Below are positions 10,675-13,600 of a DNA stretch of 56,180 nucleotides, piece after piece. Made by a program: the position numbers and the translations under genes. Source of the DNA: Asaia bogorensis (lineage in GTDB: Bacteria > Pseudomonadota > Alphaproteobacteria > SHVZ01). Every line of letters starts with the position of its first letter. Positions within the stretch are counted from its first letter, which is position 1. The notes beneath the pieces were generated by a model. That model searched no databases. It was not told the origin of the DNA and saw only the letters and a program-made list of their open reading frames with translations. The DNA lies in assembly GCA_945897335.1 (NCBI GenBank), contig CAMDFP010000002.1, positions 1 through 56,180 of the forward strand, given 5' to 3'.

Positions 10675-13600
10675 TCAATGTCCGCCCGCATGCCGATGCA
10701 GCACGTCGATCAGCGCATCGATGGTGGCGAGACCGACGAGATCGCGCGGCGGGATGTCGATGCCCAGCACCGCCATCGCGGCCAGCGTCACCTCGACCCG
10801 GTCGATCGAGTTGGCGCCGAGCTCGGTCATGCTGCGCTCCGGGCGGATCTCGGCCGGCGGCACTTCGGGCAAGCCTTGCCGTACCTGCTCCAGCACCACC
10901 CGGGCGACATGGGCGCGCGAGCCCGCCGCCAGCTCGCCCGCCAGCACCGTGCGGATGCCGGCGGCAAGCCGGCCGGCATGCGGCTCAAGCACCAGGGAGA
11001 AATGGTCGCACTCGATCGCATGGAGCTCGAGCGGACCGCCGACCAGCACGTCCCAGCCGGCACGATAGTCGCCGTCGGTGAGGAAGGCCGGGAGATCGAG
11101 CGGATTGTCCGCCGGCGCCATCCCCTGGGTGCAGCGGAACAGCACGGTGCGGAGCGGCGGCTCGATCGGCACGGCGCGATAATCGGCGAGCGCCCGGCCG
11201 ATGACGCGCGCCACCCGATCCATGCCGCCAATCAGCCGGCTCGCTTCCGGGCGCGGCATCGGTGGCGGCGCACCGGCATAGAGATGGTCGAGCACGCTCG
11301 TCACGCGTTGCGCATCGTCGAGCGCGGCAAGCGCGTCGGGCGCCAGCATCGGCCGGCCCCAGCGCTTCGCCAGCCAGTTGCCGGCGAGCCGGTAGATGAA
11401 ACCCTCGCCGAAGCCCTGGTCCATGCCGGTGAGGCTGCGGTTTCCCGGCGCGTTGGCATCCAGCAGCAGAAGTCCCGTCGCCGGCCGGCCGCGCGCCGCC
11501 ATGATCCGCGCCACGGCGAAGGCGATGGCGCCGCCGCCAGAATAGCCGCCGAGCCAGTACGGGCCGGACGGGTACGCCTCCATGAGCAGGCCGGCGTAGA
11601 TCGAGGCGAAGGCCTCGACAGTTTCGGGCACCGGCGCGTCGCCGTTGAGGCCCGGGGCCTCGAAGGCATGGACCGGGACGGCGTCGCCGAGCTTCTGGGC
11701 GAGGTCGACGACCCAGCTCACTTCCCCTGGCGCGCCATGCACCAGGAACACTGGTGCGGTCGTGCCGGTCGCCCGGATGGTGACCAGCGGCGAACGCACC
11801 GCCGGCTGCGTCTCGAGGGCGGGGCCGGCGAGAGCAGCGGCAAGCCGGCCGAGCGTCCGGTGCTGCCACAGCAGCGTCACCGGCATCGGCCGCCCGGCGA
11901 CCCCCTCGATCCGGCGCGCGATCTCAAGACCGCTGACAGAGGTCAGGCCGAGTTCGTCGAGCGGCCGGTCCGGTGCAATTTCGGCTGCGCCAAGTCCAAG
12001 GACGTCGGCCGCGACGCGGGTCAGTTGAGCCAGCAGCGGCCCTGCGGCCTGGGGTATTGGCTGCGTAGGCCGCACTGTCTGTACCAAGGGGCGCCGGATC
12101 ACGGCGGCATCGACGGCGACCACCACCTTGCCGACATTCTCGCGCCGCGCCAGGCGACCATAGGCCTCCTCGATCCGCGAGAACGGCACGACGGCATCGA
12201 TCAGAGGTCGGACGGTTCCTGCCGCCATCGCCGCCGCCATGCCGGCAAGCTCGGCCTGGGTGAGCGCGGCACCCGCAAGGACACGGCCGAGATTGACGGC
12301 GATGAAACTCTGGTTGTCGAGGAAACGCGACAAGTCGAGCCGACCGCCGGACATCAGGCCCGCCAGCGCGACCTCGACATAACGGCCGCCCGGCGCCAGC
12401 AGGTCGATGCCTTGCTGCACCGCATTGCCGCCGAGCAGGTTCACCACCACGTCGGCGCCACGGCCTGCGGTTCCCGCCCGGACCCACGTCGAAACGTCGC
12501 CGGTCTTGTAGTCGAAGACTTCGGCGCCGAGGCGACGCAGCGCGTCCAGCTTGGCAGGCGAGCCGGCGGTCGCCAGCACGCGCGCCTTCGCCGCCAACGC
12601 CAACTGCACCACGAACGGACCGACGCCGCCGCCGGCCGACGTCACCAGCACGGTCTCGCCCGGCGCCACGCCGGCGCGATCGAGCGCGTGACGCGCGGTC
12701 AGCCACCCGATCGGGAAGGCCGCCGCCTCGGTCAGGTCATAGCCGTCGGGCAGCTTGATGGCGTGGCTCGCCGGCACCACCACGCGGTCGGCATGGCCGC
12801 CGCGCCCACCGGTCAGCGCCACCACCGCATCACCGACGGCGAGCGCTGTCACGCCGGCGCCAAGCGCCGCCACCCGCCCGGCCACTTCAAAGCCAGGTAC
12901 GAACGGATAAGGCGGCAGGTTCGGGTAGGCGCCGCGCAGGCTCAGGAGGTCGCCGAAATTGAGTCCGAAGGCGGCAACTGCGATCTCGATCTCACCGGCA
13001 CCGGGCGGACCGAGCGGGACCTCGGCTACCGTCACCTCGTCGATATCAGCCGGTCGGGAAATCAGCACCGCACGCCGCGTCGACGGCGAAGCCGGCACCG
13101 CCGCCGGCGCAGCCGCGACAACGCCGGGGGGCTCCGCCGTCATGTCGATCCAGCAGCGGCGACGTTCGAACGGATACGTCGGCAGCGAGACCGGTTGTGG
13201 CGACTTGCCGCGCCAGAGTCGCAGCCAGTCGACCGGCGCGCCCTTGGCCCAAGCCGCCGCTACCGCTGCGGCCGGCGCGTCATCATCGAGGTCGGCCGGC
13301 GTGTGCCCGATTGCCTTGCCCTGCCGCCAGGAACCCGGCCGGCCGGCAAGGAAGTCGTCGATGCTCGCAACTACGTCCGCCGCGTCGTCAGCAACCAGCG
13401 CAAGCCGATAGGCCATCGCCTCGCGGCCGGCTTGAAGCGTCCAGGCAACAGCGCCGAGATCCAGACCTGGCAGTGTCCTGAGGTGAGCGGCGAGACGCTC
13501 GGCGGCCTGACGCAACCGCTCCGACGTTCGCGCCGAGATCACGACGACATGGCCGCCATCAGGCGTCGCCGCATGCAGGACCGGCGGCGACGGAGCCTCG

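What the first reader, a model, noticed from the sequence alone, without database searches (positions are those of the whole stretch)
10678..11800. TE is not the last domain: a type-II-like ACP is fused behind it, immediately upstream of the beta-branching KS/HCS genes
Seen: after the TE (GYSGG ... CDHF) the ORF continues for about 75 aa. That stretch reads MTELGANSIDRVEVTLAAMAVLGIDIPPRDLVGLATIDALIDVL, which looks like a discrete FAS-type ACP rather than the PKS-type carriers elsewhere in the protein. The next gene is the Cys->Ser decarboxylating KS, followed by HCS, ECH1 and ECH2. Established: HCS cassettes need a dedicated donor ACP (AcpK/CurB/MacpC type) on which the Ser-KS makes acetyl-ACP. 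That ACP is normally a separate small gene at the head of the cassette. Inference: here the donor ACP gene has been fused in frame to the 3' end of the megasynthase (TE-ACP). This would be an unusual tethering of the beta-branch donor to the assembly line. The free ACP at 5136-5369 is the alternative donor candidate.
Basis: partly seen in the sequence, partly recalled or inferred. Interest (0 to 1): 0.7.

Follow-up and report, generated by a model that had tools for sequence, protein, structure and literature searches.

The report
Donor carrier domain fused behind thioesterase
The last 80 residues of a 6389-residue polyketide synthase, after its release thioesterase, are the small carrier protein that normally stands alone and supplies acetate for beta-branching; this fused form is real and shared by a whole clade of clusters, but it is a variant of a known system.

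Summary
The minus-strand ORF 10675-29844 ends ER-ACP-TE and then carries a further complete ACP (10678-10920, Ser codon 10807-10809). The next genes are a Cys->Ser KS, HCS, ECH1 and ECH2.

An HMM was built from 27 free-standing ACPs chosen only because they lie directly 5' of the Ser-KS in unrelated HCS cassettes. It scores the tail at 63 bits. Every other ACP in the window scores 12 bits or less, and the free ACP at 5136-5369 scores 10. The tail's best PDB hit is CurB, the curacin donor ACP. It carries the donor signature LGANSxDR.

The fusion is not an artefact. It is intact in several independent metagenome assemblies, in Azospirillum sp. B4 and on the closed plasmid of Methylosinus trichosporium OB3b. 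It is also present in at least 20 distinct 50%-identity protein clusters. All TE-ACP loci fall in one HCS clade, and the tail is under purifying selection (dN/dS 0.08-0.23).

The tandem ACPs at 20890-21411 match known beta-branch acceptor ACPs, so donor and acceptor sit on one polypeptide.

I rate it a new variant of a known kind, of moderate interest. The literature tools failed, so prior description could not be checked.

The parts
10675..29844 (-). Last megasynthase gene of a trans-AT-type PKS (6389 aa). Domain order: KS-MT-ACP / KS-KR-ACP / KS-ACP-ACP-(degenerate ACP) / KS-DH-KR-MT-ACP / KS-ER-ACP-TE-ACPd.
   Evidence: ORF list; Pfam scans. No AT domain is found in any module.
10951..11847 (-). 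Thioesterase domain (GYSGG Ser, CDHF His) directly after the last module ACP.
   Evidence: PF00975 E 1e-20; clade TE HMM 423 bits. Best PDB sequence hit is the gladiolin PKS TE 9f7b, E 2e-16. Foldseek top hits are 7r0x and 9f7b.
10921..10950 (-). Short TE-ACP linker (about 10 residues, GELAAGSRAH). Its length and sequence vary between relatives.
   Evidence: Alignment A2; the Azospirillum sp. B4 linker is longer.
10678..10920 (-). C-terminal donor-type ACP domain (ACPd), fused in frame to the TE.
   Evidence: PF00550 E 4e-9; position-defined donor HMM 63.2 bits; CurB is the best PDB hit; NF005502 is the best NCBIfam hit; four-helix model; dN/dS 0.08-0.23.
10807..10809 (-). Codon of the predicted phosphopantetheine-attachment Ser, in the donor signature LGANSIDR.
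   Evidence: Sequence. The signature is GANS in 25/27 and Arg at S+3 in 27/27 rows's alignment of position-defined free donors, which still included one off-frame row. The Ser is invariant in alignment A2.
11827..12009 (-). Ordinary last-module ACP that feeds the TE.
   Evidence: Pfam PP-binding; 1.0 bit on the donor HMM.
20890..21411 (-). Tandem ACP doublet after a KS with no reductive domains: the predicted beta-branch acceptor ACPs.
   Evidence: The top five PDB hits of the second ACP are VirA ACP5 (4ca3, 2mf4), the MmpA ACP3 didomain (2l22), a CurA ACP (2liu) and PksL (5eny). I recall all five as beta-branching ACPs.
9422..10660 (-). Free-standing decarboxylating KS (Cys->Ser). Its ATG lies 14 nt after the megasynthase stop codon.
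   Evidence: NF005490 (polyketide beta-ketoacyl:ACP synthase) 314 bits; GAASAS active site; the homologous gene is called at 412 aa in L001.
8202..9425 (-). HMG-CoA-synthase-like HCS.
   Evidence: Pfam and NCBIfam; homologs are named PksG by JGI/IMG, and the patellazole PtzI is 66% identical.
7432..8211 (-). ECH1 (dehydratase of the cassette).
   Evidence: NF005498 200 bits; PF00378.
6698..7447 (-). ECH2 (decarboxylase of the cassette).
   Evidence: NF005496 315 bits, above its 215-bit cut-off; gene call of 249 aa in L001.
5136..5369 (-). Free 77-aa ACP. It is not donor-type and is probably the partner of the adjacent HxxxDG acyltransferase.
   Evidence: 10.0 bits on the donor HMM; no NF005502 hit; best PDB hit is AcpM, with no CurB hit; motif GEWDSLASSE.

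Best explanation
The C-terminal 80 residues of the megasynthase are the donor ACP of the HCS beta-branching cassette (AcpK/CurB/MacpC type), fused in frame behind the chain-release thioesterase.

Inferred mechanism:
- The fused ACPd is phosphopantetheinylated on the Ser of LGANSIDR.
- It is loaded with malonate by a trans-acting acyltransferase, which is not encoded in this window.
- The Ser-KS encoded immediately downstream decarboxylates malonyl-ACPd to acetyl-ACPd.
- The HCS takes the acetyl group and adds it to the beta-keto intermediate held on the tandem acceptor ACPs (20890-21411) of the same polypeptide.
- ECH1 and ECH2 dehydrate and decarboxylate to give the branch.

Probable origin: the donor gene normally lies directly behind a PKS gene and in front of the Ser-KS. 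Loss of the intervening stop codon fuses it to whatever domain ends that PKS. That domain is a TE in this clade and tandem ACPs in a few other lineages.

Shown here: domain identity, family membership, gene context, conservation of the fusion and purifying selection. Inferred: loading, decarboxylation, acetyl transfer, and any benefit of tethering such as fixed stoichiometry or recruitment of the KS and HCS to the assembly line.
For: - Family membership, independent test. An HMM was built from 27 free ACPs chosen only because their ORF ends within -20 to +50 nt of the Ser-KS start. The loci were fetched through the HCS alone and none came from the window clade. It scores the tail at 63.2 bits. 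The next best ACP in the window scores 11.6 and the free ACP 10.0. Over all loci the scores are bimodal, with an empty gap from 35 to 59 bits.
- Reverse direction. phmmer of the tail against 1.84 billion representatives returns mostly free-standing ACPs of 79-110 aa (106 of the 150 listed). JGI/IMG names several of them 'polyketide biosynthesis acyl carrier protein'. An HMM of these picks out exactly one ACP per locus, directly 5' of the Ser-KS, at 67-115 bits, against 37 bits or less for the module ACPs (one further small free ACP, in L016, scores 52.9).
- The best PDB hit is CurB, E 6e-7.
- NF005502 is the best NCBIfam model for the tail and for 6 of 6 position-defined donors.
- The signature LGANSxDR is present.
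- The fusion is real. There is no stop or indel in L001 (99.6% nt identity, 0 gaps), L002, L006, Azospirillum sp. B4 or the closed plasmid pOB3b1 of M. trichosporium OB3b. In the 25 kb of pOB3b1 examined, the fused ACP is the only donor-type ACP.
- At least 21 representatives of 50%-identity clusters end in TE-ACPd.
- dN/dS of the tail is 0.08 and 0.23, similar to or below that of the TE.
- The acceptor ACPs are identified and the Cys->Ser KS.
Against: - No biochemical evidence exists; function is inferred from homology and context.
- The tail scores 43.9 bits on NF005502, below NCBI's curated cut-off of 79. Three of six bona fide free donors also fall below it.
- No acyltransferase to load the ACP was found in the window; 204-1634 is a PfaD-like trans-ER.
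- The rest of the genome was not examined, so a further free donor ACP encoded elsewhere cannot be excluded.
- The NJ tree used to argue for one clade has no support values.
Confidence: 0.85

Rival explanations
1. The free 77-aa ACP (5136-5369) is the cassette's donor, and the tail ACP has another role or none.
For: It is a free-standing small ACP with an intact DSL Ser, in the same operon four genes downstream of the HCS. It is conserved in the window clade.
Against: It scores 10.0 bits on the position-defined donor HMM, like a module ACP. It has no NF005502 hit. Its best PDB hits are AcpM, with no CurB hit. It lacks the GANS-x-DR signature. It always travels with the HxxxDG acyltransferase-like gene (5382-6713). 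It is absent from the M. trichosporium OB3b cluster, which still has the full cassette and TE-ACPd.
Confidence: 0.04
2. The fusion is a sequencing or assembly artefact, such as a lost stop codon or a frameshift joining two genes.
For: It is a high-GC sequence of unknown provenance. One related MAG contig appears to have the TE-ACP region split into two gene calls (P0305 and P0123).
Against: The same uninterrupted frame is found in independent assemblies with SNPs but no indels, in an isolate draft genome, in two closed assemblies of the OB3b plasmid, and in at least 21 divergent representatives. Synonymous changes greatly outnumber non-synonymous ones across the junction.
Confidence: 0.01
3. 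TE and ACPd form a functional pair. The TE acts as an acyl-transferring 'branching' thioesterase like the oocydin TE_B, or as an editing hydrolase. It would use or police the acetyl/malonyl group on the neighbouring ACPd. Chain release would then be done by the HxxxDG protein with the free ACP.
For: The best structural match of the model is 7r0x, 'branching thioesterase from oocydin biosynthesis' (E 2.5e-16, TMt 0.79). The cluster has an alternative candidate release pair, the HxxxDG enzyme plus the free ACP. The TEs of this clade form their own subfamily, scoring 340-430 bits against about 100 for other PKS TEs.
Against: The ordinary release TE of the gladiolin PKS (9f7b) is an equally good structural match and a much better sequence match (2e-16 against 5e-9). 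The TE sits in the canonical position after the last module ACP. The OB3b cluster has no HxxxDG/free-ACP pair and no other TE in the 25 kb examined. The same TE subfamily occurs unfused in L042 and L018. ACPd also fuses to tandem ACPs where no TE is present.
Confidence: 0.07
4. The tail is a decaying relic of a read-through gene fusion and no longer functions.
For: Its score on NF005502 is below the curated cut-off.
Against: The Ser and the whole donor signature are invariant across the clade. dN/dS is 0.08-0.23. No other donor-type ACP is present in the window or in the OB3b locus.
Confidence: 0.03

Closest known systems
CurB (curacin), AcpK (bacillaene), MacpC (mupirocin), TaB/TaE (myxovirescin): free-standing donor ACPs of HCS cassettes
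   Same: Same sequence family. CurB is the best PDB hit and NF005502 the best NCBIfam model. The position directly 5' of the Ser-KS and HCS genes is the same, and so is the signature around the Ser. The inferred role is the same: to carry malonyl, then acetyl, for the HCS. That role is known to me from the bacillaene and curacin work, recalled from memory.
   Different: Here it is not a separate 80-aa protein. It is the last domain of a 6389-aa synthase, placed after the TE, so donor and acceptor ACPs share one polypeptide.
Donor ACP fused behind tandem acceptor ACPs (loci L042, L071; proteins P0208, P0269, seen only in this analysis)
   Same: The donor-type ACP is fused to the C-terminus of the PKS gene that precedes the Ser-KS.
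   Different: The fusion partner is an ACP repeat, not a TE. These lineages lie outside the TE-ACPd set (L071 also falls outside its HCS clade; L042 is not in that tree), which suggests independent fusions.
In-cis integration of other cassette parts, such as the ECH2 domains in CurF, JamJ and PedI (from memory)
   Same: A normally free cassette component becomes a domain of the megasynthase.
   Different: Those are catalytic domains placed at the module where they act. Here the fused part is the donor carrier, and it sits at the far C-terminus behind the release domain.
OocS TE_B, the branching thioesterase of oocydin biosynthesis (PDB 7r0x)
   Same: It is the top Foldseek match of the TE part. 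It is also a case where a TE-fold domain is not the last domain of a trans-AT PKS protein (from memory).
   Different: Sequence similarity is weaker than to the gladiolin release TE. There is no evidence here for acyl transfer. The context here is terminal: ACP-TE at the end of the last module.

Membership tests
HCS-cassette donor ACP (AcpK/CurB type; NCBIfam NF005502) | ACP fold with the phosphopantetheine Ser at the start of helix II | tested here: met
   PF00550 E 4e-9. The AF2 model has four helices, with Ser330 of the didomain at the start of helix II.
HCS-cassette donor ACP (AcpK/CurB type; NCBIfam NF005502) | Sequence groups with ACPs that occupy the donor position, not with module ACPs | tested here: met
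   63.2 bits on the position-defined donor HMM, against 11.6 or less for all other ACPs in the window; bimodal distribution with a gap from 35 to 59 bits. CurB is the best PDB hit.
HCS-cassette donor ACP (AcpK/CurB type; NCBIfam NF005502) | Signature L-G-A-N-S-[IVL]-D-R around the Ser | tested here: met
   The tail reads SMTELGANSIDRVEV. In one search's alignment of position-defined free donors (27 rows, one of them an off-frame ORF), 25/27 have GANS and 27/27 have Arg at S+3.
HCS-cassette donor ACP (AcpK/CurB type; NCBIfam NF005502) | Encoded directly 5' of the Cys->Ser KS and the HCS | tested here: met
   The ACP ends at 10678 and the KS ATG is at 10660; the HCS follows.
HCS-cassette donor ACP (AcpK/CurB type; NCBIfam NF005502) | Score above NCBI's curated cut-off for NF005502 (79 bits) | tested here: not met
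   43.9 bits. Three of six position-defined free donors also fall below the cut-off, at 65-73 bits, so the cut-off is narrow.
HCS-cassette donor ACP (AcpK/CurB type; NCBIfam NF005502) | Free-standing protein of about 80 aa | tested here: not met
   It is fused in frame to the TE with no stop codon. This is the point of difference. It concerns architecture, not chemistry.
HCS-cassette donor ACP (AcpK/CurB type; NCBIfam NF005502) | Carries malonyl, is decarboxylated by the Ser-KS, and hands acetyl to the HCS | not testable with these tools
   Needs in vitro loading and mass spectrometry, or genetics.
Type I PKS chain-release thioesterase (PF00975) | Alpha/beta-hydrolase TE with a Ser/Asp/His triad, directly after the last module ACP | tested here: met
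   PF00975 E 1e-20. GYSGG, LLD and CDHF are conserved in A2. An ACP lies at 11827-12009 just before it. Best PDB sequence hit is the gladiolin TE.
Branching thioesterase (TE_B, oocydin type) | TE-fold domain that transfers an acyl group to a hydroxyl of the intermediate instead of releasing the chain | tested here: inconclusive
   7r0x is the top Foldseek hit, but the release TE 9f7b is equally close and much closer by sequence. I do not know residues that discriminate the two types, and the papers could not be read.
Beta-branch acceptor ACPs (tandem ACPs at 20890-21411) | Closest relatives are ACPs at known beta-branching modules; tandem arrangement after a KS without reductive domains | tested here: met
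   The top five PDB hits are VirA ACP5a/b, MmpA ACP3, a CurA ACP and PksL. The Trp flag that I recall for these ACPs is Leu here; this was not pursued.

The most novel reading that the evidence does not exclude
The TE-ACPd didomain may be a functional unit rather than a neutral gene fusion. In one version, the tether docks the Ser-KS and HCS on the C-terminus of the megasynthase, so that branching happens in a fixed complex with donor and acceptor carriers in one polypeptide. In the other, the TE itself uses or edits the acyl group on ACPd, by TE_B-like acyl transfer or by proofreading of the donor.
Probability: 0.12. Interest if true: 0.7.

Novelty: new variant of a known kind. Interest (0 to 1): 0.45.

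Why it matters
Annotation. Cluster annotation tools and people look for a small free ACP at the head of an HCS cassette. In this clade they will not find one. They may pick the wrong ACP, as the free 77-aa ACP here invites, or call the cassette incomplete. Affected genomes include Azospirillum, Methylosinus, Methylobacterium, Acetobacteraceae and some Acidobacteriota.

Domain order. It is also a clean counter-example to the rule that the TE is the last domain.

Experiments. A donor carrier covalently tied to the assembly line means the Ser-KS and the HCS must visit the C-terminus of the synthase. That gives a handle for structural work on how trans-acting branching enzymes engage a megasynthase. 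It also allows a simple test of whether tethering matters: insert a stop codon between TE and ACPd. Two culturable isolates carry the architecture, so the test is feasible.

Tried and rejected
- Literature. Ten calls to the paper tools failed. Nine timed out (16, 20, 44, 51, 53, 58, 70, 73, 78, 83 less), and one DOI was not held. I could therefore not check whether a TE-fused donor ACP has been described. All statements about AcpK, CurB, MacpC, TE_B and PptH biology are from memory.
- First homolog search. The word-indexed search with the 86-aa tail found only a fragment of itself. The exhaustive HMMER search was needed.
- TE-ACP didomain as query. The word-indexed search gave only 11 hits. 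That was enough for a shallow alignment but not for a census.
- Misclassified loci. L014, L015 and L021 first looked fused because of long stop-to-stop ORFs. Reading them showed an off-frame Arg-rich artefact of high-GC DNA, with a normal free ACP starting at Met. They were reclassified as free.
- Faulty HMM input. The first version of the position-defined HMM contained one off-frame sequence, for L062. It was rebuilt, and the scores barely changed.
- No intermediate found. I looked among the 80 loci for an arrangement 'TE, stop codon, ACPd' and found none.
- Internal start. An internal start for separate translation of the ACP was considered. The only in-frame GTGs (VV of ARVVLEQ) would cut into helix I and have no obvious ribosome-binding site. 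Unlikely, but not excluded.
- Trp flag. The Trp flag of acceptor ACPs was not pursued. The position I recall is Leu here, and my memory of the motif is not firm.
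Full report
**What is there.**
The finding lies on the minus strand. ORF 10675..29844 encodes a 6389-aa synthase whose modules contain no AT domains, so it is of the trans-AT type. 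Its end reads ER, ACP (11827-12009), TE (10951-11847; GYSGG ... CDHF; PF00975, E 1e-20), a linker of about 10 residues, and then a further complete ACP (10678-10920) up to the stop codon at 10675-10677.

The last 104 residues alone hit PF00550 at E 4e-9. An AlphaFold2 model of the TE-ACP didomain (mean pLDDT 86.6) shows a four-helix ACP with the Ser of LGANSIDR at the start of helix II.

The genes that follow on the same strand are:
- a free KS, 9422-10660, with GAASAS in place of DTACSS, so Cys->Ser with both His residues kept; its best NCBIfam hit is NF005490;
- HCS, 8202-9425;
- ECH1, 7432-8211;
- ECH2, 6698-7447 (NF005496 above its cut-off).

**Is the tail a donor ACP? Search outward from the tail.**
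An exhaustive phmmer search of the 86-aa tail against 1.84 billion representative proteins gave 258 hits at E <= 1e-3. Of the 150 listed, 106 are proteins of 110 aa or less, mostly free ACPs of 79-100 aa. JGI/IMG names several of these 'polyketide biosynthesis acyl carrier protein'.

I fetched 80 genomic loci through the HCS alone. An HMM of the free homologs picked out exactly one ACP per locus at 67-115 bits. That ACP always lies directly 5' of the Ser-KS, which is the donor position. All module ACPs scored 37 bits or less; a second small free ACP in L016 scored 52.9.

**Is the tail a donor ACP? Test without input from the tail.**
I chose 27 free ACPs purely by position: the ORF ends within -20 to +50 nt of the Ser-KS start, and no locus belongs to the window clade. 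I built an HMM from them and scored everything.
- The tail scores 63.2 bits.
- The next best ACP in the window scores 11.6.
- The free ACP at 5136-5369 scores 10.0.
- Over all loci the scores are bimodal, with nothing between 35 and 59 bits.

Other lines agree. Among all PDB sequences the tail's best hit is CurB, the curacin donor ACP (E 6e-7). The free ACP's best hit is AcpM, and CurB is not among its hits. NF005502 is the tail's best NCBIfam model and the best model for 6 of 6 position-defined donors. The tail's 43.9 bits is below NCBI's cut-off of 79, but so are three of those six donors. The free donors share L-G-A-N-S-x-D-R (GANS in 25/27 and Arg at S+3 in 27/27 rows's alignment, which still held the off-frame L062 row). 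The tail has this signature; the free ACP (GEWDSLASSE) and the module ACPs do not.

**Is the fusion real?**
The junction is uninterrupted in every relative examined.
- L001 is 99.6% identical in DNA, with 9 mismatches and no gaps over 2076 nt.
- L002 and L006, from other metagenome assemblies, are intact.
- Azospirillum sp. B4 (GCA_000333275.1; HCS 84% identical) is intact, as is a Logan assembly.
- The closed plasmid pOB3b1 of Methylosinus trichosporium OB3b is intact in two independent complete assemblies. Its 3635-aa PKS WP_065083646.1 ends in TE-ACPd and overlaps the start of the Ser-KS gene. HCS, ECH1 and ECH2 follow.
- In the 25 kb examined there, the fused ACP is the only donor-type ACP (62.5 bits).

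Among the top 150 representatives, at least 21 end in TE-ACPd. In the genome loci the same architecture occurs in L012, L013, L017, L018, L019 (Methylobacterium aquaticum), L020 and L083.

Pairwise dN/dS of the ACP tail is 0.08 (against L006) and 0.23 (against Azospirillum sp. B4). These values are similar to or lower than those of the TE. A frameshift or assembly artefact is therefore excluded, and so is a decaying relic.

**Distribution and origin.**
In a neighbour-joining tree of the HCS proteins, all TE-ACPd loci fall in one clade. The clade also holds the patellazole HCS PtzI, for which no donor ACP was found in the locus, and a Roseomonas branch with a free donor. The tree has no support values.

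The TEs of this clade form their own subfamily. They score 340-430 bits on their own HMM, against about 100 for other PKS TEs. The same TE subfamily also occurs unfused, in L042 and as the second TE of L018.

Elsewhere the donor ACP is fused behind tandem ACPs instead of a TE (L042, L071, P0208, P0269). In 45 of the 64 loci that hold a donor-type ACP (a count that includes the window and near-duplicate loci) it is free. It then lies typically right behind a PKS gene and in front of the Ser-KS.

The simplest reading is that the donor gene's usual position makes it prone to fuse, by loss of a stop codon, with whatever domain ends the upstream PKS gene. In one mainly alphaproteobacterial clade, which also includes two Acidobacteriota MAGs, the TE-fused form became fixed.

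**How it probably works.**
The module KS-ACP-ACP-(degenerate ACP) at about aa 2180-3180 has no reductive domains. The top five PDB hits of its second ACP are VirA ACP5a/b, the MmpA ACP3 didomain, a CurA ACP and PksL. I recall all five as beta-branching acceptor ACPs. Donor and acceptor carriers are thus on one polypeptide.

The steps are inferred from the known chemistry of these cassettes, which I cite from memory of the bacillaene and curacin work:
1. ACPd is loaded with malonate by a trans-AT.
2. The Ser-KS decarboxylates it to acetyl-ACPd.
3. The HCS adds the acetyl group to the beta-keto chain on the tandem ACPs.
4. ECH1 and ECH2 finish the branch.

No AT is encoded in the window; 204-1634 is a PfaD-like trans-ER. 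Whether tethering gives any advantage is not known.

**The rival worth keeping.**
The best structural match of the TE is 7r0x, the 'branching thioesterase' of oocydin biosynthesis. The cluster also has a possible alternative release pair: an HxxxDG acyltransferase-like protein (5382-6713, motif HVVADG) plus the free ACP.

Against this, the gladiolin release TE 9f7b is an equally good structural match and a far better sequence match. The TE also sits in the canonical terminal position. The OB3b cluster lacks the alternative pair. I give this reading about 7%.

**Novelty and limits.**
The domain, the cassette and the chemistry are all known. What differs is the architecture: a donor carrier fused behind the TE, conserved over a clade. 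I know of no description of this, but every attempt to use the paper tools failed, so prior description cannot be excluded.

I rate it a new variant of a known kind. It is useful for annotation and gives a handle for studying how trans-acting branching enzymes dock on a megasynthase, but a specialist would not find it very surprising.

Noticed in passing
window 4286-5110 (-): The metallophosphoesterase next to the free ACP hits PDB 6unc ('Metallophos domain-containing protein') at E 4e-82. From memory, and unverified, 6UNC is the M. tuberculosis phosphopantetheinyl hydrolase PptH. A carrier-protein 'de-pantetheinylase' inside a PKS cluster would be unusual. The trio of HxxxDG enzyme, 77-aa ACP and this gene is syntenic in the window clade.
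   Followed up: partly
window 5382-6713 (-): A 443-aa protein has only weak hits to condensation, PapA5 and WS-DGAT families but an intact HVVADG (HxxxDG) motif. It is probably an acyltransferase working with the free ACP, in esterification or off-loading. It is absent from the M. trichosporium OB3b cluster.
   Followed up: partly
window 20314-20514 (-): A third ACP-like domain after the tandem acceptor ACPs lacks the Ser (LGVDLVQAGE). A similar Ser-less ACP-like stretch follows the tandem ACPs in L042.
   Followed up: no
window 45977-49408 (-): A 1143-aa protein combines a luciferase-like monooxygenase domain (PF00296, E 1e-43) with a KS and a methyltransferase. This is an unusual module start for a trans-AT PKS.
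   Followed up: no
window 204-1634 (+): This is a PfaD-like trans-acting enoyl reductase (FabD helical insert plus NMO), not an acyltransferase. No AT domain or gene was found anywhere in the 56 kb.
   Followed up: partly
L018 2745-3899 and 9106-9945: The Solibacteraceae MAG cluster has two TEs of the same subfamily. One is fused to ACPd before the Ser-KS. The second ends another PKS gene just before the HCS.
   Followed up: no
proteins P0305 and P0123 (same 290-kb contig as HCS P0017): Here the ER-ACP-TE(N-terminal part) and TE(C-terminal part)-ACPd are called as two separate proteins. This is probably a frameshift or sequencing error in that MAG, the only broken example seen.
   Followed up: no
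L011 (Ca. Endolissoclinum faulkneri L2, patellazole locus): No donor-type ACP was found within 10 kb of PtzI, although a Ser-KS-like gene is present. The donor may be encoded elsewhere in that scattered cluster.
   Followed up: no
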